Source: a virus (Duplodnaviria > Heunggongvirae > Uroviricota > Caudoviricetes). From it: DNA of 64,000 nt. Below are positions 2,927-34,928 of the stretch, piece after piece. Position 1 is the stretch's first letter, and each line of letters begins with the position of its first letter. A model generated the notes under the pieces. The model saw only the letters and a list, made by a program, of their open reading frames with translations, was not told where the DNA came from and did no database searches. Where the stretch lies: IMG/VR virus record IMGVR_UViG_2663762946_000001; one strand, 5' to 3'. The position numbers and the translations under genes are program-made.

Positions 2927-4168
2927 ATGATTAAGAAAAATAAATATATTTTAGGTTTATTATCATTTTTTGGATCTTTATTAGTAATTTTGTCGTTTTA
3001 TGGCGCAGCTTCAGCAAATACATTGGGTTTTGATGTAGCTAGTTATCAAGACTCAACTCCCACTTATATGCAGTCTCTTAAGGACAAAGGTGGTTCGTTT
3101 GTTCTTGCTAAACTTGGTGGTTCAGGTGGTGGTGAAGGGACTCATTATAAGAACCCTAAAGCTTCTGCTCAGTTGGCTTCGGCTAGTTCGGTAGGAATGG
3201 AAATTGGTTCATATTTCTGGGGTCAATTCGGATCTAGTCAATCGGATGCTATTAAAATGGCTAATATGGCTATTGATGATGCACAAAGAGTAGGCTTAAA
3301 AACAGGTTCAGTAATTGCTTTGGACTATGAGCAGGGCGCGACTTCTGATAAAGAAGCTAACACTCAGGCGATTATCTCATTTATGGAGACTATTCAAAAA
3401 GCTAATTACAAAGCCGTATTATACTCAGGTGCTAGTTATCTAAAAAATTATATCAATGTTGAAGAAATTGGTTCTACTTTCGGTGCAAGGATTTGGGTTG
3501 CAAGTTATAAAACGATGAGTCTGCAGACAGCACCCGACTTTCGTTACTTCCCTAGCATGAACTATGTCGGAATGTGGCAATATGGCAGCAATGTTTATGG
3601 CGTAGATGGTAATGTTGATTTAACTAACCTTATGAAATCTGGAGACGTTAAGAACGATGTTAAGGTTACTCCAACAGCTCCTAAAACCGTGGTAAGTGCC
3701 GAAACCATTGATAACTCCAATAAGTATTATGTAGTTCAATCGGGTGATTCATGGTGGAAGATAGCCAATAAGTTAGGCTTAGAAATGAATCAGTTAGCTA
3801 AGTTAAATGGTTTGACTATTAACTCTGTAATCCATCCAAGCCAGAAACTGTTGATTAAGGGAACACTCAAGAATGATGCTAAACCGACTACTGTTAAGAA
3901 AACAACTGTTACTACAGCAGTATCATTACCAAGTGGTGTTAGGGTGCAATCAGGTTATTTCATTCCTAACCAAAGACTGATGGTGTGGAAAAATGCAGGA
4001 TCTAACCCTACAGATATCTACTATTATAAAGGCGAAGTTATCAAATATGTTGGTTATATTCGTAATGGTGGGTATAATTACGTAGCTTATAAGACTTCTG
4101 CTGGCAACTGGCGTTACGTTGCCGATAGACGTATGCCAAGTCGTGTAGCACTCGGTACTTTTAGATAA
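2927..4168 (+). CDS. endolysin: signal peptide, GH25 muramidase, LysM and a C-terminal SH3-like domain
   Basis: The start at 2927 follows a GAAAGGAAG ribosome-binding site. The N-terminus (KYILGLLSFFGSLLVILSFYGAASA) is a signal or signal-anchor sequence. The GFDVASYQ motif is the GH25 signature. YYVVQSGDSWWKIANKLGL...LAKLNGL is a LysM domain. The C-terminal YxY-rich region looks like an SH3b-type wall-binding domain. Confidence 0.75.
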   Translation: MIKKNKYILGLLSFFGSLLVILSFYGAASANTLGFDVASYQDSTPTYMQSLKDKGGSFVLAKLGGSGGGEGTHYKNPKASAQLASASSVGMEIGSYFWGQFGSSQSDAIKMANMAIDDAQRVGLKTGSVIALDYEQGATSDKEANTQAIISFMETIQKANYKAVLYSGASYLKNYINVEEIGSTFGARIWVASYKTMSLQTAPDFRYFPSMNYVGMWQYGSNVYGVDGNVDLTNLMKSGDVKNDVKVTPTAPKTVVSAETIDNSNKYYVVQSGDSWWKIANKLGLEMNQLAKLNGLTINSVIHPSQKLLIKGTLKNDAKPTTVKKTTVTTAVSLPSGVRVQSGYFIPNQRLMVWKNAGSNPTDIYYYKGEVIKYVGYIRNGGYNYVAYKTSAGNWRYVADRRMPSRVALGTFR

Positions 4169-5563: not shown

Positions 5564-6649
5564 GTGGTAAATTATTTGAGGGCGAAGGAATTAAAAATGT
5601 ACTTGTATAATAATAAAGACAAATTAATTACTATTCTTGAAGCTGCTGGCTTTCATGATATTTGGGAAAATAATGCTAATGAAATTAGATGTGCTACGCC
5701 CAATGGTACTAACAAGACCTCAGTAGCGATTAAACTGAACGAAAGTTTATATACGACAATATATTCATCAGATTTTTCAGGAGATATTATTGGAGCTATT
5801 CAAGTTGTTATGGACGATTCTTTAAAAGACACGATAATGTTTATACATGCCTGCCTAGGTCTTTCAATGAAGTATGTAAAGAACAAACACGATCCATTGA
5901 AATTGTTAAAAAAATATTCTAATGGCTCAAGATTGAGTAAGAATACTCATGAGAACAAGCTCTATTCTAAGCGTTATTTGAATAGATTCGTGAAAGGATT
6001 ACACAAACAAATAATTGAAGAAGGCATAACACCCAGTGTGGCTAGAAAATTTGAAATATGTTACGATCCAGAGCAGAGTAGAATTATATTCCCCCATTAT
6101 GATTGGGAAAAATCAAATCAAATAGTTGGGATAAAAGGAAGAACGACTATGGATGCGGATCTAGCAGCGGAACTTGATGTCCCAAAATATTGGAATTATA
6201 TTTCGGATTACAAAAAAACTAATAACTTATATGGATATTCTCTTTCAAAAGAAGGAATAGAAAAAAATAATATGATCATACTATTTGAAGCAGAAAAATC
6301 TGTCCTAAAACAGTTTACATTTGAAAAAGAAATTGGTTATTCGGTGGCATTAGGAGGACATGTGATCAGTGAAGAACAAGTCAGGTTTCTTTTAAAGAAT
6401 ACACCAATAGATTGTGAGATTGTTTTAGCTTTTGATAAAGATATTATGGTTAATGAAACAGAGGGAGAAACTTTCATTAAAAAGGAATGCAATAAGTTTC
6501 TAGGAATGAGGAGAATAAGCTATATATATGATAGTTTTAATATATTGAAAGATAAATCATCACCAATAGACGAGGGATATAAAAAATGGAATTATTTGTT
6601 AAAATGGAGAAAGAACTATAATAAACATATCGACAGAAAAGTTGTATAA
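5564..6649 (+). CDS. DNA primase-like protein with a TOPRIM domain
   Basis: A 361-aa protein. LFEAEKSVLKQ...VALGGH...LAFDKD matches the TOPRIM Glu and DxD motifs. It sits at the head of the replication module. Confidence 0.45.
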   Translation: MVNYLRAKELKMYLYNNKDKLITILEAAGFHDIWENNANEIRCATPNGTNKTSVAIKLNESLYTTIYSSDFSGDIIGAIQVVMDDSLKDTIMFIHACLGLSMKYVKNKHDPLKLLKKYSNGSRLSKNTHENKLYSKRYLNRFVKGLHKQIIEEGITPSVARKFEICYDPEQSRIIFPHYDWEKSNQIVGIKGRTTMDADLAAELDVPKYWNYISDYKKTNNLYGYSLSKEGIEKNNMIILFEAEKSVLKQFTFEKEIGYSVALGGHVISEEQVRFLLKNTPIDCEIVLAFDKDIMVNETEGETFIKKECNKFLGMRRISYIYDSFNILKDKSSPIDEGYKKWNYLLKWRKNYNKHIDRKVV

Positions 6650-6660
6650 TGTTATCATAC

Positions 6661-6674
6661 AAATAAACATAATG
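6661..6674 (+). promoter_or_regulatory. class-2 phage motif AAATAAACATAATGAAAG
   Basis: An exact motif copy 14 nt upstream of the ATG at 6688. Confidence 0.5.
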
Positions 6675-6687
6675 AAAGAGGGATTGC

Positions 6688-7854
6688 ATGAGATTAAAGT
6701 ATGAAGAACTAGAGTTATTAAAGAAAAAATATGGTGTTAATCGTATTTGGTCTTTTTCGCGTATTAGCACTTTTCTCAATTGTCGTTGGGCTTATAAGTT
6801 ATTATATATAGATAAAATAAGAGCGAACAATGACAATGTTTATACTATTATGGGTACAGAATGTCATAGAATCATACAAGATTATCTTGCAAATGATATT
6901 AAATATCCTGATATGGAGCATCAATGGGGCGAATTTATCCAAAAATGGAAAGATGATCCGAAATCTTTTCAGTTTGACACAAAAAAAATTGAAAATGGTT
7001 ATCTTGATAATATCGAACATTATTTTAAGAATACAGATAGTATTCCATTCAAGGTCAATAATGAAAAACCTATTCTTATTAAATTAAAAGATAAGGATGG
7101 AAAGCCCTTCATTTTTGTAGGTTATGCGGATACAGAATATAAAGATGATAAAGGCGATCTAAATATTATTGATTTTAAGACTTCAAGTAAATCAACATTT
7201 TCACCCAAAGGATTACCAAAAAAATCTATGCAGTTGATTTTGTATGCAATAGGAGAACATCAGCGTACGGGACTTCCTTACGATAAGATACATTGTAGAT
7301 TTGATATGCAAAAGTATTGTACAGTAAATTATCGTATGGAAAATGGAAAATGGAAGAATTCTATTCAGGCTAGGTCAGAATGGGTGTTCAAAATGAGTAA
7401 TAAATTAAAAACAAAATTACCAAAAGCTGGCGTAGATCCAATTACTACTGATGAAATGATAATAGAAGCAAGTCAAAATAATAATATGGACAATCTCCCA
7501 GAAGAAGTAAGAAACCAATTCAGAATAAGTAACTATTATATTGATATTGAATTAAGTGAAGAAATTTGTCAAAAGTTAGAAGAAAAAATAATAGGATATT
7601 GCAAGGATACATTAGAACTTGAAGATATGGGTGAAGACTTAAATGACTATCTAGAAATAAACTTTCCATATGACTCTAGTAATTATTATTGTCAAAAGCT
7701 ATGTGCTTATCATAGTAGTCAAGCATTCAAGGAAGAAATGGGAATTATAAAGAAACCACTTCTTGATGAACAAGAGATAGATAATTTATTTGGTAATGTC
7801 GAAAGCGAAGACGCTGAAGAGGATGACGAATTGTTAAAAGAGTTATTAAGCTAG
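6688..7854 (+). CDS. PD-(D/E)XK nuclease, Cas4/RecB-like exonuclease with a C-terminal Cys cluster
   Basis: GYADTEYKD...IIDFKTS corresponds to the D...E-x-K nuclease core. The C-terminus has CKDT...CQKLCAYH, a four-Cys arrangement like the Fe-S site of Cas4-type nucleases. Confidence 0.5.
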   Translation: MRLKYEELELLKKKYGVNRIWSFSRISTFLNCRWAYKLLYIDKIRANNDNVYTIMGTECHRIIQDYLANDIKYPDMEHQWGEFIQKWKDDPKSFQFDTKKIENGYLDNIEHYFKNTDSIPFKVNNEKPILIKLKDKDGKPFIFVGYADTEYKDDKGDLNIIDFKTSSKSTFSPKGLPKKSMQLILYAIGEHQRTGLPYDKIHCRFDMQKYCTVNYRMENGKWKNSIQARSEWVFKMSNKLKTKLPKAGVDPITTDEMIIEASQNNNMDNLPEEVRNQFRISNYYIDIELSEEICQKLEEKIIGYCKDTLELEDMGEDLNDYLEINFPYDSSNYYCQKLCAYHSSQAFKEEMGIIKKPLLDEQEIDNLFGNVESEDAEEDDELLKELLS

Positions 7855-7888
7855 ACTACAAATAAACATAATGAAAGGCGGAGAAACT

Positions 7889-8110
7889 ATGAAATTCAAA
7901 AATAATACGGTATTGGCTAAGCATTTAGGTAATGACAAGATTTATATGTGGCATGTTCCTGCCTCTATGGGGTTAAGACATAAAGTAAGAATTGGGAGTC
8001 TTATTAAGGTAGATACTCAATATGGCAATAAAATTGTAAAGGCTGTTGGGGTCGCACTTGTAAAAAATAGTAGCGGAAAATTCAGAGAGGTGGTCGAGTT
8101 TATTAAATGA
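7889..8110 (+). CDS. hypothetical small protein
   Basis: ORF from 7871 to 8110. The likely start is 7889, after AAAGGCGGAG. It overlaps the start of the next gene (ATGA). Confidence 0.35.
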   Translation: MKFKNNTVLAKHLGNDKIYMWHVPASMGLRHKVRIGSLIKVDTQYGNKIVKAVGVALVKNSSGKFREVVEFIK

Positions 8111-9333
8111 AACAATGGGTAAGCTTACATCAACACACCGATGAATCCAACGCAGGTGGTTATTTTGAAGTAGTGACTCAATATACTGATTATGTAAAAT
8201 ATGCCAAGGAAAACGAATTACCAGCAGTTTGTATAACTAATCATGGGAATGTAGCAAGATGGATGAAGCACAAAATGGCTATTAATGATTCTGGTATGAA
8301 ATATATTCATGCAATAGAAGCATATGTGACCATGAATTTGGAAGACAAAAATAGAGGGTATCATACAATTCTAATTGCAAAGAATTATGAGGGTGTGAAA
8401 GAGATTAATAGGTTATCCTCTGCATCATTTAATAGACAGGATGGACATTTTTATTATAAACCGAGAATTCTATTTGATGATCTAAAAAATACTTCAGACA
8501 ATATCTTTGTAACAACAGCATGTTTAGCAGGGGCACTTTGGCAAACATTTCCTCATCTGAATAGACAGACGAACAAAAGAGTTGAGGGCGATAAAAAAAT
8601 ATTTAAGGCTTGGATTGACTTCATTGAACAGAATAAAGAACGTGTATATCTGGAACTGCAGCCACATATCGATGAGGAACAAAAAGAGTACAACAAGCTA
8701 TTAGTAAAAATTGCTAAGAAAAAAGGTTTTAAATTAATTGCTTCAAATGATATTCATGCCCTAAACCAGCGACATAACGAAATTCGCTTAATGATAAAAA
8801 GAGGTAAAAAATCTGATTATGAGGGCGATGATAAATTTGAGATATGGTGCAAGAATTACGATGAAATGCTTGAAACTTTTGAAAGACAAGGCGTAGTAAG
8901 CAGGGGAATTGTTGAAAAAGCCCTGGATGCGACAATGGAAATTGTTAATCAAGTTGAAGACTTTGAATTAGACAGAACTCATAAATACCCACATTTATTT
9001 AAAGATGAAGAAAGTAAATTTAAAGAACTGATTGTGGAGGGTATGAAAAAAAGGGGTATCGCAAAACTCCCAAAAGAAGAAAGAAAAAAGTATATGAGTA
9101 GAGTCAATAAGGAGTTTAAAGTATATAAACAAAACGGGGCTATAAGTTATATGCTTGCTGATTGGCTTATGATTGAGGAAGCAAAGAAACAAGGTCGAAG
9201 AGTAGGGTATTCTCGTGGTAGTGTATCAGGTAGTTTGATTGCTTACTTACTCAATTCGACAGAAATTGATTCAGTTAAGGAAAATCTGAATTTTGAACGT
9301 TTTATGAACCCTGAGCGAATAAGTCTAGCGGAT
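8107..9333 (+). CDS. DNA polymerase III alpha (DnaE/C-family) exon 1, covering the PHP domain and part of the palm
   Basis: LHQHTDESNAGG...ITNHGNVAR...HAIEAY is the PHP domain. The C-terminal GYSRGSVSGSLIAYLLNSTEIDSVKENLNFERFMNPERISLAD aligns with the DnaE G(P)GRGSAAGSLVAYAL...FERFLNPERVSMPD motif. The reading frame stops right after this, and the protein continues at 10520. Confidence 0.7.
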
Positions 9334-10519
9334 TGATAGGTTTCTATCACAAATATCAGTAAGAAGGTGTTTGTGTGAGGATTGTAACTGACGAAGAAAA
9401 GATAAAGAGTGTTGAATTATATAAAAAGGGATTGTCAACAGTAAAAATAGGGAAGTTGTTTAACCGAGAGCCACGTACTATCAATAGAATGTTAAAAAGT
9501 ATGGGCGTTGAAATCAGGAGTAATAAGATTAATTCTCGTAAACATCATATCTATAACGAAAGGTACTTCAATAATATAGATACTCAAGAAAAAGCATACT
9601 TATTGGGTTTTATATATGCTGATGGTTTTATATCAATTAATGGTAATACTAAAAGGTTTGGTATATCAATCAATCGAGTTGATGAGTATTTATTAGAATT
9701 TGTTCGTAAAGAACTAAATACCGATTATCTCATTAACAGATATAAAGTCTCTTGTGGATATAGAGTCGGTGTAAATTATTCTCGTTTATTGATGACAAGT
9801 GATTTACTAGTTGATGATCTCATAAAACATGGAGTTGTCGAGCATAAAACCAATATATTATTGCCACCTAAAATATCAAACAATCTAAAAAGACATTTTA
9901 TCAGAGGATACATGGATGGCGATGGATCTATTAAAAAATGTAAAGGAAATTACAATTACGAATATGGAATTGATTTTGTAGGTACTACTGCTTTGCTGAC
10001 ATGGATTTATGATTATTTTTTAGAAAACAATTTAATTTCTAAAAGAAAAATCAATCTAGAAAAACGGAAAAAAGGCCAGTTAGTATCTCATATTCGTTGG
10101 GGCGGAAATCGACAAGTTCTCCGAATATTAAACCATTTATATAAGGATAGCGCTTTTTGTTTAAACAGGAAATTCGACAGATATTTACAATTGATGGAAC
10201 AAAGTAGTCCCATACAGGAGTGATCCTGTATTGCAAACCTCTTGAACCTATAAATATATAGGGTGTGGATATAAATATATCTGCTAACGGTTGAGTTCCC
10301 TTGCGGAAAAAACCGTGCTAACTCCTTGAAAAAGGAAATTGTGTAACGACTATCGAAAGGCAACGTTAAGTTGAACTGAGTAGAGTAGAGTTAATTGGTA
10401 ATTAATTCGAAGCGGGAGGCACTTATTTAATGATACTAATTAAATAAGTTGATGAGATAGTCTACTCCGACCACACAAAGATGTGGTGTTAAAGTATAAC
10501 GCAAGTTACGGTAGCTAGG
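9334..10519 (+). other. group I intron 1 in the DnaE gene, carrying a homing-endonuclease ORF
   Basis: Inferred from the polymerase alignment. Exon 1 ends ...SLAD (last nucleotide U at 9333). The protein resumes in frame at 10520 (IDHDWSGEDKIEVQKW, matching DnaE FDVDFC.DRRDEVIDYV) directly after a G at 10519. The sequence from 10224 to 10519 is a GC-richer, structured non-coding stretch. Confidence 0.55.
9375..10223 (+). CDS. LAGLIDADG homing endonuclease with two motifs, encoded inside the intron
   Basis: LLGFIYADGFI is motif 1 and FIRGYMDGDGSI is motif 2. There is an N-terminal HTH-like segment. The ORF lies entirely within the gap in the DnaE coding sequence. Confidence 0.75.
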   Translation: MRIVTDEEKIKSVELYKKGLSTVKIGKLFNREPRTINRMLKSMGVEIRSNKINSRKHHIYNERYFNNIDTQEKAYLLGFIYADGFISINGNTKRFGISINRVDEYLLEFVRKELNTDYLINRYKVSCGYRVGVNYSRLLMTSDLLVDDLIKHGVVEHKTNILLPPKISNNLKRHFIRGYMDGDGSIKKCKGNYNYEYGIDFVGTTALLTWIYDYFLENNLISKRKINLEKRKKGQLVSHIRWGGNRQVLRILNHLYKDSAFCLNRKFDRYLQLMEQSSPIQE

Positions 10520-11421
10520 ATAGATCATGATTGGTCAGGAGAAGATAAAATAGAAGTTCAAAAATGGTTGTTGACAAATCCAAATTTGCATTGCGCATCT
10601 ATTATGACAGCTAACACTTATGGACTGAAGGGCGCAATTAAAGTTATTGCAAAGGGAATGGATGGCTATAAAGACAAATCTCCGTTTGAGATTCAGGGAA
10701 TATGTAATCAAATAGATATTAAGGATAACTATCCAGACTCAATATATCAATCTCATAAGAAATTATTTGATACAGCCAAAGAGATAATTGGTGTTATTGA
10801 TTCGTTCGGTAGACATGCTTGTGGAATTGTTGTAAGTACAGAACCATTAGAAGGCGTAATGGGTACTCAAACTGTAAGTGGCTGGGATTATCCAGTAACA
10901 CAAGTTTATATGAAAGAAATAGACTATTGTAACTTCACAAAGTTTGATGTATTGGGTCTTGATAATCTTGGGTTAATAACAAAGTCTTGTGAGTTAGCTG
11001 GGTTACCTTTTTTAACACCAAACTCAACAGATATTGTCGATTTTCAAGATGAAAAAGTGTGGCAATCAATGGTCGAATCAAATATTGGTATTTTCCAATT
11101 TGAGGGAGAAAGAGCTGGTAGTATATTAAGACACTTATTCTCAGAAGAAACTATGAAAAAAATTAAAGAAAGAGTACCTGATATTAAATATATGGATTTA
11201 TTAAGTCTTGCTAATGCAGCACAAAGACCAAGTGGAGCAAGTTATCTTGAATCAGTAACGGAAGGTAAATTTACAGACAACGGGCACGATGCACTGAATA
11301 AATTTCTTGCCCCAACACTAGGAAATTTAGTTTATCAGGAACAACTTATTCAATTTTTGGTTGATTTTTGTGGATGGAGCTATGGGCAAGCTGATTTAAT
11401 TAGGCGTGGCATAGGTAAAAT
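10520..11421 (+). CDS. DNA polymerase III alpha (DnaE) exon 2
   Basis: ASIMTANTYGLKGAIKVIAKGM matches DnaE [28 protein letters not shown] matches HAAGVVIS. KFDVLGLDNLG matches DnaE DFLGLRTLT. It ends ...ADLIRRGIGK, which matches RRAMGK(KKPEEM). The exact 3' boundary is uncertain by a few nucleotides. Confidence 0.65.
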
Positions 11422-11787
11422 CTTTGCCTGTTAATGTGGAAACACATTATATGAAAGAGGACGAAATAGGGGAAGGTTGTAAAATATTAATCCCTAGATA
11501 ACACGATAAACTAAAGAATATTGTGTATTGTAACGCATAGTGGGTGAAACTGTAAAACAGAATATAATCCCACCAAGAGCGCCCTCCATGTAATCTTATA
11601 GAGATTACTATGCTAGTTTTGCCAACTAGATACCTAACGTTAAACGAGGATGAAAATGTATGCTAGTCTGAACTGGAATAGACCAGTTGATGAAAATGAG
11701 GAAAACCTCCAGAGCATGAGATAAAAAACTCATGGTTAATAACAATCGAAAAAGTCTCAAGCTATTATGGATAGCGAAGTGCCTAAG
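11422..11787 (+). other. group I intron 2 in the DnaE gene, with no ORF
   Basis: The frame terminates 4 codons after RRGIGK. The protein continues at ...KIKPSFIKTMIEKY (DnaE GKKKPEEM) near 11788. The roughly 365 nt between them are non-coding. The boundaries are approximate. Confidence 0.45.
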
Positions 11788-12924
11788 ATAAAACCTTCTT
11801 TTATTAAAACTATGATAGAAAAATATAATGATACCAAAGAACACGCAGAAGAAGTGGCAGATAGATTTATCCAGATATTCATGGATGCGGCTAATTATGG
11901 TTTTTCTGTAAATCATAGCCTTCCTTACTCCTACGTTGGATACATTGCGACATGGTTAAGATATTATTACTCTCTTGAATTTGCAACATCTGCCTTTGAA
12001 ATATGGAAAGATGATCAAAATAAAATTAATAAGGTTTCCAGTTATGCGCAAGAACATGGAATTACTCTAAAGAAAGCTATATTCGGAAAATCTAAAGGGC
12101 TGTATTTCATGGATAAAGATAATAATTCAATATACGAGGGTACTGCTTCTATTAAGGGAAATAATTCGCAGGTTGGGGATTTACTATATGATATTGCTAA
12201 AATTAAGAAGTATGAAAACTTTTGTGATCTTTTGTTAAAAATACATGACGATTCCTTTATAGCCGATAAAGAAGGAAATATTACAGCTATAGAAGACGTT
12301 TATAAGAAAGACGAAATTGAGCTTCAAAAAATAGATAAAGAGCTTAAATCAGGTGATATAGAGCTTCATCAAAATAAATATGATATTAATAAGACTAAAA
12401 TGGTAGGACTTATAAGATTGGGCTATTTTGATAAATTTGGGTCAATAAAAAAACTACAAACTATCTATGATTTCTTCAAAAAAGAGTATAAGCCTAATAA
12501 CAAAACTCTATCTGGTAAAGCTAAGAAATATCAATTGTGTGTAGAAACCGAAAAAAATACTCCAGAAGATGAGTACAGTTTTATACAATTACTAGAATTT
12601 GAATTATATTACACTGGGAAATGTAGTAAACATGATGATAGAATGCCAAGCAAATATGGCTTTATTGTTGATGTTAATAAAGGAAGGACTAGAACTAGAG
12701 CAACTGTGTATTCTATAAAGTATGGGAAAAATATGCCTATGCTTGTTGGAAATAGAGTTTATAACAATGTGCCTTTCAAAACTGGTGATCTAATTTCTAT
12801 TGAACAAATAGAGGAAAAACCAAAGTCTGTTTTCATGGACGGTCAATGGACTAAACACCCTACTGATGTAGATATTTGGGTCAAACAAGCAAAATTCATA
12901 AGAAAAGGTGAAATCAGCAAATGA
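11788..12924 (+). CDS. DNA polymerase III alpha (DnaE) exon 3
   Basis: ANYGFSVNHSLPYSYVGYIATWLRYYY matches the DnaE motif [25 protein letters not shown]. A C-terminal OB/tau-binding-like region follows. Confidence 0.65.
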   Translation: MKPSFIKTMIEKYNDTKEHAEEVADRFIQIFMDAANYGFSVNHSLPYSYVGYIATWLRYYYSLEFATSAFEIWKDDQNKINKVSSYAQEHGITLKKAIFGKSKGLYFMDKDNNSIYEGTASIKGNNSQVGDLLYDIAKIKKYENFCDLLLKIHDDSFIADKEGNITAIEDVYKKDEIELQKIDKELKSGDIELHQNKYDINKTKMVGLIRLGYFDKFGSIKKLQTIYDFFKKEYKPNNKTLSGKAKKYQLCVETEKNTPEDEYSFIQLLEFELYYTGKCSKHDDRMPSKYGFIVDVNKGRTRTRATVYSIKYGKNMPMLVGNRVYNNVPFKTGDLISIEQIEEKPKSVFMDGQWTKHPTDVDIWVKQAKFIRKGEISK

Positions 12925-32399: not shown

Positions 32400-32608
32400 A
32401 AACTATTCCCCCTAATATATTTTTCCCATCAACGACACTATATGTCATTAATGAATACCTGGTAACAGAATCGAACTGCTGTTTTGGATTATTAGACCAA
32501 TGTTTTGCCATTAAACTAACCAGGTACATGAGTTGTTGGAACTCACAAATGTTAGTACAAACTTACATTAATTACCAAAAAATACTCCATGAATTTTATT
32601 TTTGATAA

Positions 32609-32681
32609 CAGTCATGATCGGATTTGAACCGATAACCTACTGATTAGAAGTCAGTTGCTCTATCCAATTGAGCTACACAAC
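32609..32681 (-). tRNA. tRNA-Arg (anticodon UCU)
   Basis: Read on the minus strand, a 7-bp acceptor stem AGTTGTG/CATGACT (2 G-U pairs), D-arm GCTC-AATTGGAT-AGAGC, anticodon arm ACTGA-CTTCTAA-TCAGT, T-arm ATCGG-TTCAAAT-CCGAT. No CCA is encoded. Confidence 0.7.
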
Positions 32682-32949
32682 TATGTCAGCAGACAAACAA
32701 GAATAATTCTGCGACAAACACTATCATCATTGAATTTTGATATTACCATCTCACTCCGATAGTTATTTTTATTGTTAATACAGGGTAATCTGCTAACACT
32801 TGAAATAAAAGGAATAATGACTTTAAGCTTACAATTATTACTAAATTGGGTTTCTCCTATAAATAGGATCAGGGTCACTTGTTTTCATTAAATTACATAT
32901 CAACTACTATTGACTATCCTTTTTCGTTAATACAACCAAATTGAATTTA

Positions 32950-34854: not shown

Positions 34855-34928
34855 AGATTGTACAGGAATCGAACCCGCGTTACAGTCTTTCTTAGAGACC
34901 ATTGTTCTACCAATTGAACTAATCAGGC
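34855..34928 (-). ncRNA. tRNA-like element, a possible pseudo-tRNA
   Basis: On the minus strand there is a D-arm GTTC-AATTGGTA-GAAC, a stem-loop GGTCT-CTAAGAA-AGACT, and a T-arm GCGGG-TTCGATT-CCTGT. The acceptor ends (GCCTGAT / ACAATCT) do not pair. Confidence 0.3.

What the first reader, a model, noticed from the sequence alone, without database searches (positions are those of the whole stretch)
8107..12924. DnaE-type (C-family) replicative polymerase split into three exons by two group I introns, one carrying a LAGLIDADG homing endonuclease
Exon 1 ends exactly within the conserved FERFLNPERVSMPD|FDVDF motif (ours is ...FERFMNPERISLAD|IDHDWSGEDKIEV). Exon 2 ends within RRAMGK|KKPEEM (ours is RRGIGK|(I)KPSFIKTM). 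Exon 3 carries the [15 protein letters not shown] motif (ours is GFSVNHSLPYSYVGY). Both insertions fall within highly conserved polymerase positions, which is a characteristic of self-splicing introns and homing endonucleases. Intron 1 (about 1.19 kb) carries a double-motif LAGLIDADG ORF. Intron 2 (about 0.36 kb) has no ORF. Intron-split family-A polymerases are known in SPO1- and Twort-like phages. A doubly intron-split DnaE-type polymerase in a phage is less usual. It also means the correctly spliced protein is invisible to ORF-based annotation.
Basis: partly seen in the sequence, partly recalled or inferred. Interest (0 to 1): 0.6.

Follow-up and report, generated by a model that had tools for sequence, protein, structure and literature searches.

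The report
Two group I introns split DnaE
The replicative DNA polymerase gene of a 145-kb phage-like replicon of Liquorilactobacillus hordei is interrupted at its catalytic centre by two self-splicing-type (group I) introns, a known kind of selfish element in a host gene where it has rarely been described and which gene annotation misses.

Summary
The finding holds, with corrected coordinates. Window 8107-12924 encodes one DnaE-type (PHP + Pol III alpha + finger) polymerase in three exons: 8107-9333, 10520-11416 and 11749-12924. Joining them gives a 1099-aa protein. It is colinear, with no gap at either junction, with an uninterrupted 1099-aa homologue from other L. hordei strains (78% identity).

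Intron 1 (9334-10519, 1186 nt) follows the codon aligned with E. coli catalytic D401. It carries a 282-aa double-motif LAGLIDADG + HTH endonuclease ORF in its P1 loop and has an IA2-like core.

The junction is RRGIG|KKSQAIMDSEVPKI, not RRGIGK|IKPSF.

Both introns have U at -1 paired with G in P1, a terminal G, and the P3/P7 pseudoknot topology. Both belong to large families in viral contigs with strong compensatory covariation. Relatives carry one intron, the other, or neither, and some carry an intein.

Rfam's Intron_gpI model does not detect either intron. It also misses complete members of the intron-2 family, so this is a sensitivity gap.

Splicing itself was not tested. This is a new member of a known kind, of moderate interest.

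The parts
8107..9333 (+). Exon 1 of the DnaE-type polymerase (409 codons): PHP domain plus the first part of the Pol III alpha catalytic domain. It ends with the GAU codon for the Asp aligned with E. coli D401.
   Evidence: Pfam PHP (E 9e-22) and DNA_pol3_alpha profile positions 2-103/260. Alignment to E. coli Pol III alpha 2hnh/4jom. Colinear with P0001.
9334..10519 (+). Intron 1, a group I intron with an IA2-like core, 1186 nt. It starts with UGA, an in-frame stop, and ends with G10519.
   Evidence: Boundaries come from the Pfam profile break and the intron-less homologues P0001 and L177. The same intron sits at the same codon in Lysinibacillus phage LC76P1 (L003) and viral contig L116.
9375..10223 (+). 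Homing endonuclease ORF inside the P1 loop of intron 1. It is 282 aa with a GTG start, preceded by GAAGGUG at 9363-9369. It has an N-terminal HTH and two LAGLIDADG motifs. Its stop codon UGA (10221-10223) lies in the GUGA loop of P2.
   Evidence: Pfam LAGLIDADG_3 at 33.4 bits (cut-off 22.5) and HTH_38. It is 48% identical to the ORFs at the same place in L003 and L116. UniRef names it 'DOD-type homing endonuclease domain-containing protein'.
10207..10231 (+). Intron 1 internal guide sequence and P2. GUCC 10207-10210 pairs with exon G9330-U9333, giving the U9333.G10207 wobble. P2 is 10212-10219 / 10224-10231.
   Evidence: The arrangement 'GU(C/U)C + hairpin + P3' recurs in L116 (GUUCC, P2 AUAUAGGG/CCCUAUAU), in L003, and in the ORF-less relative L097 (P1 CGGAU/GUCCG). 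P1 is short, and the MFE fold of an ORF-deleted construct did not recover it.
10238..10519 (+). Intron 1 catalytic core.
- P3 10238-10244 / 10413-10419
- Two extra hairpins: 10247-10262 and 10267-10282
- J3/4 + P4 10287-10292 / 10311-10316
- P5 10296-10299 / 10305-10308
- P6 10323-10327 / 10332-10336
- P7 10348-10352 / 10458-10462 (G10348-C10462 is the proposed G-binding pair)
- P7.1 10361-10364 / 10370-10373
- P7.2 10391-10396 / 10400-10405
- P8 10421-10431 / 10439-10449
- P9 10470-10475 / 10482-10487
- P9.1 10497-10500 / 10505-10508
   Evidence: Pair counts on 20 relatives: P3 100% paired with 5 of 7 pairs changed on both sides, P4 99%, P9 95%, P9.1 96%. The whole structure is 75% paired against 33-45% for slid controls. 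Positions 10341-10387 are 89% identical to the annotated group IA2 intron of Aeromonas phage 25 gene 43B. Rfam RF00028 gives family member L070 28.3 bits, E 0.0024.
10520..11416 (+). Exon 2 (299 codons): the rest of the Pol III alpha catalytic domain, including the Asp aligned with E. coli D403 and the KFDVLGL Asp, plus most of the finger domain. It ends at ..RRGIG. It has no start codon of its own at its 5' end.
   Evidence: Pfam DNA_pol3_alpha positions 104-260/260 and DNA_pol3_finger 25-145/166. Translation. Alignments.
11417..11748 (+). Intron 2, an ORF-less group I intron of 332 nt.
- P1 11411-11416 / 11426-11431 (U11416.G11426)
- P2 11432-11438 / 11443-11449
- P3 11457-11463 / 11580-11586
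- P4 11467-11471 / 11492-11496
- P6 11501-11508 / 11519-11526
- P7 11535-11539 / 11659-11663
- P7.1 11540-11544 / 11569-11573
- P8 11587-11589 / 11650-11652, closing hairpins 11590-11608 and 11613-11629 and the invariant CUAACGUUAAACGAGG at 11634-11649
- P9 11671-11676 / 11683-11688
- P9.1 11698-11701 / 11706-11709
- P9.2 11715-11720 / 11729-11734
- Terminal G11748
   Evidence: Relatives L177 and L181 have an intron at the same codon with the same P1 and compensatory P2, P3 and P7.1 changes. Their introns carry a LAGLIDADG ORF in the P4/P5 loop. The core motif occurs in 94 viral loci. Pair counts on 23 sequences: 83.9% paired against 31-44% slid, 54 of 66 pairs changed on both sides, and P7, P7.1 and P8 100% paired. 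The MFE fold recovers P1, P2, P3, P4, P6, P7.1, P8a/b and P9-P9.2 with z = -4.1. The 3' part is 82% identical to an intervening sequence of the 3-piece gyrA CDS of Bacillus phage AR9.
11749..12924 (+). Exon 3 (391 codons plus stop). It starts KKSQAIMDSEVPKIKPSF, six codons upstream of the ATG that ORF callers use. It contains the GFSVNHSLPYSYVGY finger motif and the C-terminal region.
   Evidence: Spliced length and sequence match P0001, P0002 and L116. Alignment to E. coli Pol III alpha.

Best explanation
One gene for a DnaE-type (C-family) replicative polymerase has been invaded at two conserved positions by two unrelated mobile group I introns.

The gene is transcribed as a single pre-mRNA. 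Each intron is expected to fold into a group I ribozyme. In that fold, P1 presents the U.G pair at the 5' splice site, P7 binds guanosine, and the terminal G defines the 3' splice site. Each intron then removes itself by two transesterifications. The exons join as 9333|10520 and 11416|11749, giving an mRNA for a 1099-aa polymerase.

Intron 1 sits between the codon aligned with E. coli catalytic D401 and the next codon. It encodes a LAGLIDADG endonuclease translated from its own ribosome-binding site. That enzyme is expected to cut intron-less alleles at this site and spread the intron by double-strand-break repair (homing). Intron 2 has lost, or never had, its endonuclease gene. Relatives keep one in the P4/P5 loop.

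Shown here: exon colinearity, boundaries, RNA structure with covariation, sporadic presence or absence among relatives, and endonuclease family. Inferred: that splicing and homing actually occur.
For: 1. Exon continuity.
- The Pfam profile breaks exactly at 103|104 across intron 1.
- The spliced protein is 1099 aa, the same length as uninterrupted P0001 (78% identity, 100% coverage). The junction contexts are identical or near-identical.
- It aligns end to end with E. coli Pol III alpha across both junctions.

2. Group I hallmarks at both introns.
- Both 5' exons end in U, paired with G of an internal guide sequence. Both introns end in G.
- Stop codons follow each 5' splice site: immediately after the first (UGA) and after five codons at the second.

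3. Structure with covariation.
- Intron 2 family: 83.9% of cells paired against at most 43.5% for slid controls. 54 of 66 pairs change on both sides. No shuffle out of 500 reaches the observed values for four of the five measures, and only 2 of 500 for the fifth.
- Intron 1 family: 75.2% against at most 45%. P3 is 100% paired with multiple pair types.
- Both have the P3/P7 pseudoknot order 5'P3-P4-P6-5'P7-3'P3-P8-3'P7.

4. Links to annotated introns.
- The intron 1 core matches the annotated 'group IA2 intron' of Aeromonas phage 25 gene 43B.
- The intron 2 3' domain matches an intervening sequence of the joined gyrA CDS of phage AR9.
- Rfam gives a full-length sub-threshold Intron_gpI hit to intron-1-family member L070.

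5. Mobility signature.
- LC76P1 and L116 have intron 1 only.
- P0087 and P0111 (loci L177, L181) have intron 2 only, with an endonuclease ORF.
- P0001 and most of the 120 listed homologues have neither.
- Distant PHP polymerases (L097, L064) have an ORF-less intron at the same ..D|(V/I)D.D codon.

6. The ORF is a LAGLIDADG_3 + HTH protein.
Against: - Rfam RF00028 gives no hit to either intron, even at E <= 10.
- P1 of intron 1 is only 4-6 bp and forms across about 870 nt. It was not recovered by the MFE fold of an ORF-deleted construct, which instead paired the intron's first bases with the free P7 strand.
- P3 of intron 2 has one A x C mismatch.
- P7 of the intron 1 family is invariant in my sample, because the sample was collected with that motif. 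It therefore gives no covariation evidence.
- No RNA data or biochemical data are available, so splicing competence and endonuclease activity are unproven.
Confidence: 0.88

Rival explanations
1. Split polymerase without RNA splicing. Insertions of a homing-endonuclease gene and other DNA have broken the gene, and three separate polypeptides assemble into a working enzyme. The gp43A/gp43B pair of some T4-like phages works this way.
For: ORF callers and RefSeq list the pieces as separate proteins. An ATG at 11767 lies only six codons into exon 3. Aeromonas phage 25 shows that split polymerases exist next to endonuclease genes.
Against: - Exon 2 has no start codon at its 5' end. The first possible start is TTG at 10568, 16 codons in.
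- No Shine-Dalgarno-like sequence precedes 11767.
- A cut between the two catalytic aspartates (the D401 and D403 equivalents) would have to be bridged non-covalently.
- Both gaps hold conserved, covarying group I structures with correctly placed U.G and terminal G. A mere insertion would have no reason to keep these.
- The reading frames join without gain or loss of a single residue relative to P0001.
Confidence: 0.05
2. Decaying gene. The introns are real group I relics, but one or both no longer splice (for example ORF-less intron 2, with its P3 mismatch). The polymerase would then be a pseudogene, and the replicon would rely on host replication.
For: Intron 2 lacks an endonuclease ORF and has an A x C mismatch in P3. 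P1 of intron 1 is weak. No expression data exist.
Against: - All three exons are intact open frames, with no frameshift or stop over 1099 codons, and are 78% identical to intact homologues.
- Every column that is invariant in the intron 2 family alignment is by definition kept in the window. Its one deviation in P8 (CAU/AUG in place of CAC/GUG) is compensated on both sides.
- Identical exon 1, endonuclease and exon 3 product lengths appear in an independent assembly of a sequencing run (Logan ERR387525).
Confidence: 0.06
3. The intervening sequences are another kind of element: inteins, group II introns or IS elements.
For: Close relatives of this polymerase do carry an intein with a LAGLIDADG domain. 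LAGLIDADG genes also occur in inteins and in some group II introns (PMC12350094).
Against: - In-frame stop codons occur at or just after both 5' boundaries, so protein splicing is impossible.
- No Hint or intein Pfam domain is found in the ORF.
- The intein of relatives sits at a different site, GRGS|C.
- There is no reverse transcriptase.
- The conserved helices have group I order, with the P3/P7 pseudoknot and a terminal G.
Confidence: 0.01

Closest known systems
Group IA2 intron in gene 43B (PolB DNA polymerase) of Aeromonas phage 25 (DQ529280, annotated 'split by group IA2 intron')
   Same: It is a group I intron in a phage replicative polymerase gene. The J6/7-P7-P7.1 segment is 89% identical over 47 nt to window 10341-10387. 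It has the same P3-AAC, CCAAG-P6, AAGGUG(U/C)AACGACUAUCGAAAGGCAAC core and a P7.1/P7.2 region.
   Different: The host gene is a family B polymerase, not DnaE. The phage 25 intron is ORF-less, and P4 follows P3-AAC directly. The window's intron 1 family has two additional hairpins between P3 and J3/4, and carries a LAGLIDADG ORF in the P1 loop.
Group I introns in DNA polymerase (PolA) genes of Bacillus phages SPO1/SP82/Bastille and of Staphylococcus phages K/Twort (Goodrich-Blair 1990; Landthaler & Shub 2003, cited in PMC3984707)
   Same: These are mobile group I introns with homing endonuclease ORFs, inserted at conserved sites of a phage replicative polymerase in Firmicutes phages. The expected self-splicing and homing logic is the same.
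   Different: The polymerases are family A. The endonucleases are HNH-type nicking enzymes (I-HmuI, I-BasI), not LAGLIDADG (from memory and PMC3984707). No sequence comparison was made here.
The same intron in the DnaE gene of Lysinibacillus phage LC76P1 (OP172811), unannotated
   Same: The insertion codon is identical (..SLAD|IDIDF). A 282-aa LAGLIDADG ORF, 48% identical, lies in the same loop, and the core is homologous with compensatory changes in P3.
   Different: LC76P1 has no intron at the second site. Its record lists the pieces only as hypothetical proteins, so it is not a described case.
Inteins in DnaE (cyanobacterial split DnaE intein; inteins in relatives P0038/P0061)
   Same: This is a selfish element with a LAGLIDADG endonuclease domain lodged in a conserved motif of the same polymerase family (PMC4760082).
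   Different: Removal is at the protein level and the element is in frame. It sits at a different site (GRGS|C), about 37 codons upstream of intron 1.

Membership tests
Group I intron (intron 1, 9334-10519) | The 5' exon ends in U, which forms a U.G wobble with an internal guide sequence (P1) | tested here: met
   U9333.G10207 lies within G9330-U9333 / G10207-C10210. The same 'GU(C/U)C just 5' of P2' arrangement is found in L116, L003 and L097. The helix is short (4-6 bp) and was not recovered by MFE.
Group I intron (intron 1, 9334-10519) | The last intron nucleotide is G (omega-G) | tested here: met
   G10519 immediately precedes AUAGAUCAU, which encodes IDH. All aligned relatives end ..CGGU(A/G)N(3-5)G.
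Group I intron (intron 1, 9334-10519) | Conserved core helices P3-P9 with the P3/P7 pseudoknot, supported by covariation | tested here: met
   P3 100% paired with 5 of 7 pairs changed on both sides, P4 99%, P9 95%, P9.1 96%. The whole structure is 75% paired against 33-45% slid. P7 is invariant because of how the sample was collected, so it is uninformative. Peripheral hairpins were poorly aligned by MFE-independent MAFFT alignment.
Group I intron (intron 1, 9334-10519) | Match to the curated covariance model Rfam RF00028 | tested here: not met
   There is no hit at gathering score or at E <= 10. The ORF-less family member L070 scores 28.3 bits, E 0.0024, below the cut-off of 50. L097 gets no hit.
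Group I intron, subgroup IA | Extra helices P7.1/P7.2 between the 5' strand of P7 and the 3' strand of P3 (Michel & Westhof criterion, from memory; named as a class-defining peripheral element in PMC3984707) | tested here: met
   Intron 1 has hairpins 10361-10373 and 10391-10405 between P7 and P3'. Intron 2 has P7.1 11540-11573, 100% paired with 4 of 5 pairs covarying. Intron 1 matches an intron annotated IA2.
Group I intron (intron 2, 11417-11748) | U.G wobble at the 5' splice site in P1, and a terminal G | tested here: met
   AUAGGU 11411-11416 pairs with GCCUGU 11426-11431, with U11416.G11426. G11748 is the last base. L177 and L181 share the same P1 and end ..AUCG.
Group I intron (intron 2, 11417-11748) | Core helices with the P3/P7 pseudoknot and a G-C pair in P7, supported by covariation | tested here: met
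   83.9% paired against at most 43.5% slid. P3 changes on both sides in 7 of 7 pairs. P7 is 100% paired with A-U to G-C and C-G to A-U exchanges, and G11535-C11663 is invariant. P7.1, P8, P8a, P9 and P9.2 are 93-100% paired.
Group I intron (intron 2, 11417-11748) | Match to Rfam RF00028 | tested here: not met
   There is no hit at E <= 10. Complete ORF-less family members L187 and L252 are also missed at E <= 1, although two other introns in L252 score 67-72 bits.
Group I intron (both) | Guanosine-dependent self-splicing with exon ligation | not testable with these tools
   This needs RT-PCR or RNA-seq, or in vitro transcription with GTP.
LAGLIDADG homing endonuclease (ORF 9375-10223) | LAGLIDADG domain(s). 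Monomeric enzymes carry two motifs. | tested here: met
   Pfam LAGLIDADG_3 scores 33.4 bits against a cut-off of 22.5, over residues 172-252. The two motifs LLGFIYADGF and FIRGYMDGDGS are seen in the translation. Homologous ORFs occupy introns in L003, L116, L177 and L181.
LAGLIDADG homing endonuclease (ORF 9375-10223) | Site-specific cleavage of the intron-less allele | not testable with these tools
   A cleavage assay is needed on the intron-less site, for example GGCTGAC|ATAGACCATGATTGG of L177.
DnaE / Pol III alpha (C-family polymerase) | PHP domain, Pol III alpha catalytic (palm) domain with the catalytic aspartates, and finger domain | tested here: met
   Pfam PHP, DNA_pol3_alpha (profile positions 2-260 across exons 1 and 2) and DNA_pol3_finger. 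phmmer against E. coli Pol III alpha gives E 1e-36, with D409/D411 aligned to D401/D403 and KFDVLGL aligned to KFDFLGL. The catalytic role of these residues is from memory of the E. coli literature.

The most novel reading that the evidence does not exclude
The intron 2 family may be a structurally distinct branch of subgroup IA that has not been catalogued.

Its features:
- An invariant CUAACGUUAAACGAGG(G/A)UGA element.
- A P8 reduced to a 3-bp long-range helix that closes a multi-hairpin domain.
- A P7 of GCAUA/UAUGC instead of the usual GACUA/UAGUC.

It is abundant in phages: 94 IMG/VR loci, plus AR9/PBS1, phiR1-37 and Staphylococcus and Clostridium phages. The standard Rfam model cannot see it. 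If so, group I introns in phage genomes, and the number of phage genes mis-annotated as fragments, would be systematically under-counted.
Probability: 0.3. Interest if true: 0.5.

Novelty: new member of a known kind. Interest (0 to 1): 0.4.

Why it matters
Group I introns with homing endonucleases in phage DNA-metabolism genes are textbook material (PMC3984707). The mechanism is therefore not new.

What is worth recording:

1. A C-family (DnaE) polymerase is a host for such introns, with one placed between the two catalytic aspartates. My literature searches found no description of this.

2. One gene family carries three independent mobile-element sites: two intron sites and one intein site. 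This gives a clean natural system for studying competition between selfish elements for a replication gene.

3. The public annotation splits the polymerase into unrelated-looking 'PHP domain', 'HTH domain' and 'hypothetical' proteins. The same thing happens in phage LC76P1.

4. The standard Rfam model misses both introns and a family found in 94 viral loci. This is a practical blind spot for phage annotation.

Tried and rejected
- **Rfam at gathering threshold and at E <= 10.** Neither intron gave a group I hit. I treat this as uninformative after the calibration on relatives.
- **megablast of the whole region against phages and plasmids.** No match, so the replicon is not in those collections.
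- **Scan of viral contigs with ATGCTAGTCTGAAC.** It returned 48 unrelated coding sequences. I had wrongly taken GCUAGUC as the 3' strand of P7 of intron 2.
- **Two earlier P7 assignments for intron 2 (AACUAG or ACUAUGC pairing with GCUAGU).** Rejected because AACUAG belongs to a covarying local hairpin with a UUGCC loop, and because GCAUA/UAUGC covaries across the family.
- **An alternative P3 for intron 1 (UCUGC next to J3/4).** Rejected because its register is inconsistent in LC76P1 and it fails in L097. CCUCUUG/CGGGAGG covaries in every relative.
Rejected on homologue alignment.
- **The search for related loci with exon 3 alone.** It gave only one locus.
- **MFE folding of an ORF-deleted intron 1.** It did not give P1. 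A pseudoknot-blind fold leaves the P7 strand free to pair with the intron's 5' end.
- **Motif scan of the rest of the window for further intron cores.** Nothing found.

Full report
**What is in the sequence**

On the + strand between 8107 and 12924 there are four ORFs:
- 8107-9336, 409 aa
- 9375-10223, 282 aa
- 10568-11434
- 11767-12924

Pfam assigns the first ORF PHP plus positions 2-103 of the 260-position DNA_pol3_alpha profile. The frame opening at 10520 carries positions 104-260 of that profile, followed by the Pol III finger domain. The 282-aa ORF is LAGLIDADG_3 plus an HTH. The profile is therefore cut exactly between 9333 and 10520.

A TGA stop follows 9333 directly. The frame of the second piece is open back only to 10517 and has no start codon there.

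**Source**

The window is from CP049301.1, a 145,196-bp record of assembly GCA_019443985.1, Liquorilactobacillus hordei DSM 19519.

The surrounding genes are of phage type: endolysin, primase, DnaB-like helicase, exonucleases, ligase, methyltransferases and tRNAs. The replicon is best described as a large phage-like extrachromosomal element.

RefSeq lists the polymerase pieces as separate proteins: 'PHP domain-containing', 'helix-turn-helix domain-containing' and 'hypothetical'.

**Junctions**

Joining 8107-9333, 10520-11416 and 11749-12924 gives an open frame of 1099 codons.

A search of the protein collection with this product returns P0001 from other L. hordei strains. P0001 is 1099 aa, 78% identical and covers 100% of the query. 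Dozens of further uninterrupted homologues of 1085-1126 aa follow.

- At junction 1, P0001 reads ERISLADIDHDWSGKDK. Ours reads ERISLAD|IDHDWSGEDK.
- At junction 2, P0001 reads RRGIGKKLQSIMDEEVPKIKPSF and P0002 reads RRGIGKKSKEIMDSEVPKIKPTF. Ours reads RRGIG|KKSQAIMDSEVPKIKPSF.

The intron is 11417-11748, 332 nt. The ATG at 11767 is an internal Met codon.

Against E. coli Pol III alpha (2hnh/4jom, E 1e-36) the alignment runs through both junctions. It places the last codon of exon 1 opposite D401 and the second codon of exon 2 opposite D403. That these are the catalytic aspartates is from my memory of the E. coli literature.

**Intron 1**

Lysinibacillus phage LC76P1 has an insertion at the identical codon (SLAD|IDIDF), with a 282-aa ORF 48% identical to ours. 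Viral contig L116 encodes a much closer DnaE and has the same arrangement.

The 3' 300 nt contain the classical group I 'R' and 'S' elements, GUAACGACUA and GAGAUAGUCUA. A scan for the latter found 104 viral stretches. Of 107 occurrences examined, 72 have ACGACUA upstream at the expected distance.

From these I derived the structure listed under parts. The endonuclease ORF lies in the P1 loop. The guide sequence GUCC (10207-10210), just 5' of P2, pairs with GGAU at the exon end. The ORF's stop codon sits in the P2 tetraloop. ORF-less relatives in other PHP polymerases (L097 and others, junction ..ELSD|VDIDS) show the compact version, P1 CGGAU/GUCCG.

Counting pairs on a MAFFT alignment of 20 family members gave these results:
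- P3 is 100% paired, with 5 of 7 pairs changed on both sides.
- P4 is 99% paired, P9 95% and P9.1 96%.
- Overall 75% of cells are paired, against 33-45% when partners are slid.
- The covariation score is 0.275, against at most 0.131 for slid controls.

P7 is invariant by construction of the sample. Several variable hairpins were misaligned, so their counts are inconclusive.

Positions 10341-10387 are 89% identical to the intron that the Aeromonas phage 25 record annotates as 'group IA2' in gene 43B. Compared with that intron, the present family has two extra hairpins between P3 and J3/4. I saw these by eye in all relatives, and the formal count is inconclusive.

**Intron 2**

Proteins P0087-P0092 (727 aa) and P0111 (709 aa) are relatives that end ..RRGIGEFFAC* and ..RRGIGKFVAC*. 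They lack intron 1.

Their loci, L177 and L181, have an intron at the same codon. It shares the same P1 (AUAGGU/GCCUGU) and shows compensatory changes in P2, P3 and P7.1. It carries a LAGLIDADG ORF of 469 or 312 aa inside the P4/P5 loop. Exon 3 in these loci starts KKSKEIMDNEVPKI and HKIKSVMDEEVPKI.

The invariant stretch CUAACGUUAAACGAGGNUGA occurs in 94 viral stretches.

On 23 aligned members, counted against the proposed structure:
- 83.9% of cells are paired, against 31-44% slid.
- 54 of 66 pairs change on both sides.
- The covariation score is 0.448, against at most 0.121 for slid controls.
- P7 (GCAUA/UAUGC, exchanged for GCGUA/UACGC and GAGUA/UACUC in relatives), P7.1 and P8 are 100% paired.
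- P3 covaries at all seven pairs.

An independent search for the P3 partner found perfect 7-mer complements followed by AAAUCG in most members.

The thermodynamic fold of the window sequence alone recovers P1, P2, P3, P4, P6, P7.1, P8a/b and P9-P9.2, with z = -4.1.

The 3' domain is about 82% identical to an intervening sequence in the three-piece gyrA CDS of Bacillus phage AR9/PBS1. It also matches Yersinia phage phiR1-37 and Staphylococcus and Clostridium phages.

**The Rfam test**

There is no Intron_gpI hit in the window at gathering score, and none in 9200-12000 at E <= 10.

I calibrated this on relatives. RF00028 gives L070 (intron 1 family, ORF-less) only 28.3 bits. It gives nothing to L097, L187 or L252 at the family members. 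In L252 it finds two other introns at 67-72 bits.

The model therefore lacks sensitivity for these families. The negative result does not weigh against the structure shown by covariation.

**Mechanism and rivals**

The best explanation is standard group I self-splicing of both introns from one pre-mRNA, plus homing of intron 1 by its LAGLIDADG enzyme. The patchy distribution supports mobility: intron 1 only, intron 2 only, both, neither, or an intein at GRGS|C.

- A non-spliced three-subunit polymerase is unlikely. Exon 2 has no start signal, the cut falls between the catalytic aspartates, and both gaps retain covarying ribozyme structures.
- A decaying pseudogene cannot be excluded without RNA data. 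However, all 1099 codons are intact, and the core keeps every invariant position.
- Inteins and group II introns are excluded by in-frame stops and by the helix topology.

**Novelty**

[quoted passage not shown] The known polymerase cases are family A and family B.

Full-text searches for group I introns in dnaE / DNA polymerase III of phages found only intein papers.

This is a new member of a known kind. Its practical value lies in annotation and in RNA-family coverage.

Noticed in passing
relatives P0038, P0061, P0068, P0072; equivalent window position about 9220 (GYSRGS|VSGSLIAYL): Close DnaE relatives carry a 390-400-aa intein (Hint + LAGLIDADG Pfam domains) at GRGS|C...HN|(C/T)(S/G)GS, about 37 codons upstream of the intron 1 site. 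One polymerase family therefore has three separate selfish-element insertion sites.
   Followed up: partly
L187, L252 and window 11417-11748: Rfam RF00028 fails to detect complete ORF-less members of the intron 2 family at E <= 1. The family appears in 94 IMG/VR loci found with a 19-base invariant motif. This is a likely blind spot for phage genome annotation.
   Followed up: partly
L252 3145-4237 (minus strand): Three group I introns lie within about 1.1 kb of one viral contig. Two RF00028 hits (67 and 72 bits) flank the intron-2-family member at 3502-3799, leaving exons of only about 80 and about 165 nt.
   Followed up: no
window 10247-10282: The intron 1 family has two hairpins inserted between P3 and J3/4. 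They are absent from the annotated IA2 intron of Aeromonas phage 25 (L276 about 2345-2690). I saw them by eye in about 12 relatives, but the MAFFT-based pair count was inconclusive because of loop-length shifts.
   Followed up: partly
window 9334-9350 and 10350-10356: The first six intron bases, UGAUAG (two overlapping stop codons), can pair with CUAUCA at 9345-9350. Alternatively they can pair with CUAUCG in the 5' strand of P7. The MFE fold of an ORF-deleted construct chose the latter. This could be an alternative pairing that competes with the active fold, or it could be chance.
   Followed up: no
L097, L064, L111, L117, L031, L046, L077, L085: A different, distantly related PHP-type polymerase in viral contigs has an ORF-less member of the intron 1 family at the homologous codon (..AELSD|VDIDSQ). 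This suggests the site just before the catalytic DxD is a recurrent homing target across divergent C-family polymerases.
   Followed up: partly
window 32456-32682 and 34861-34922 (minus strand): The replicon carries three tRNA genes. Two are strong Rfam hits and one is at the threshold (29.1 bits).
   Followed up: no
L003 (Lysinibacillus phage LC76P1, OP172811) 5983-10529: The published phage record annotates its intron-split DnaE and the intron ORF as three 'hypothetical proteins'. The intron there is unrecognised.
   Followed up: partly
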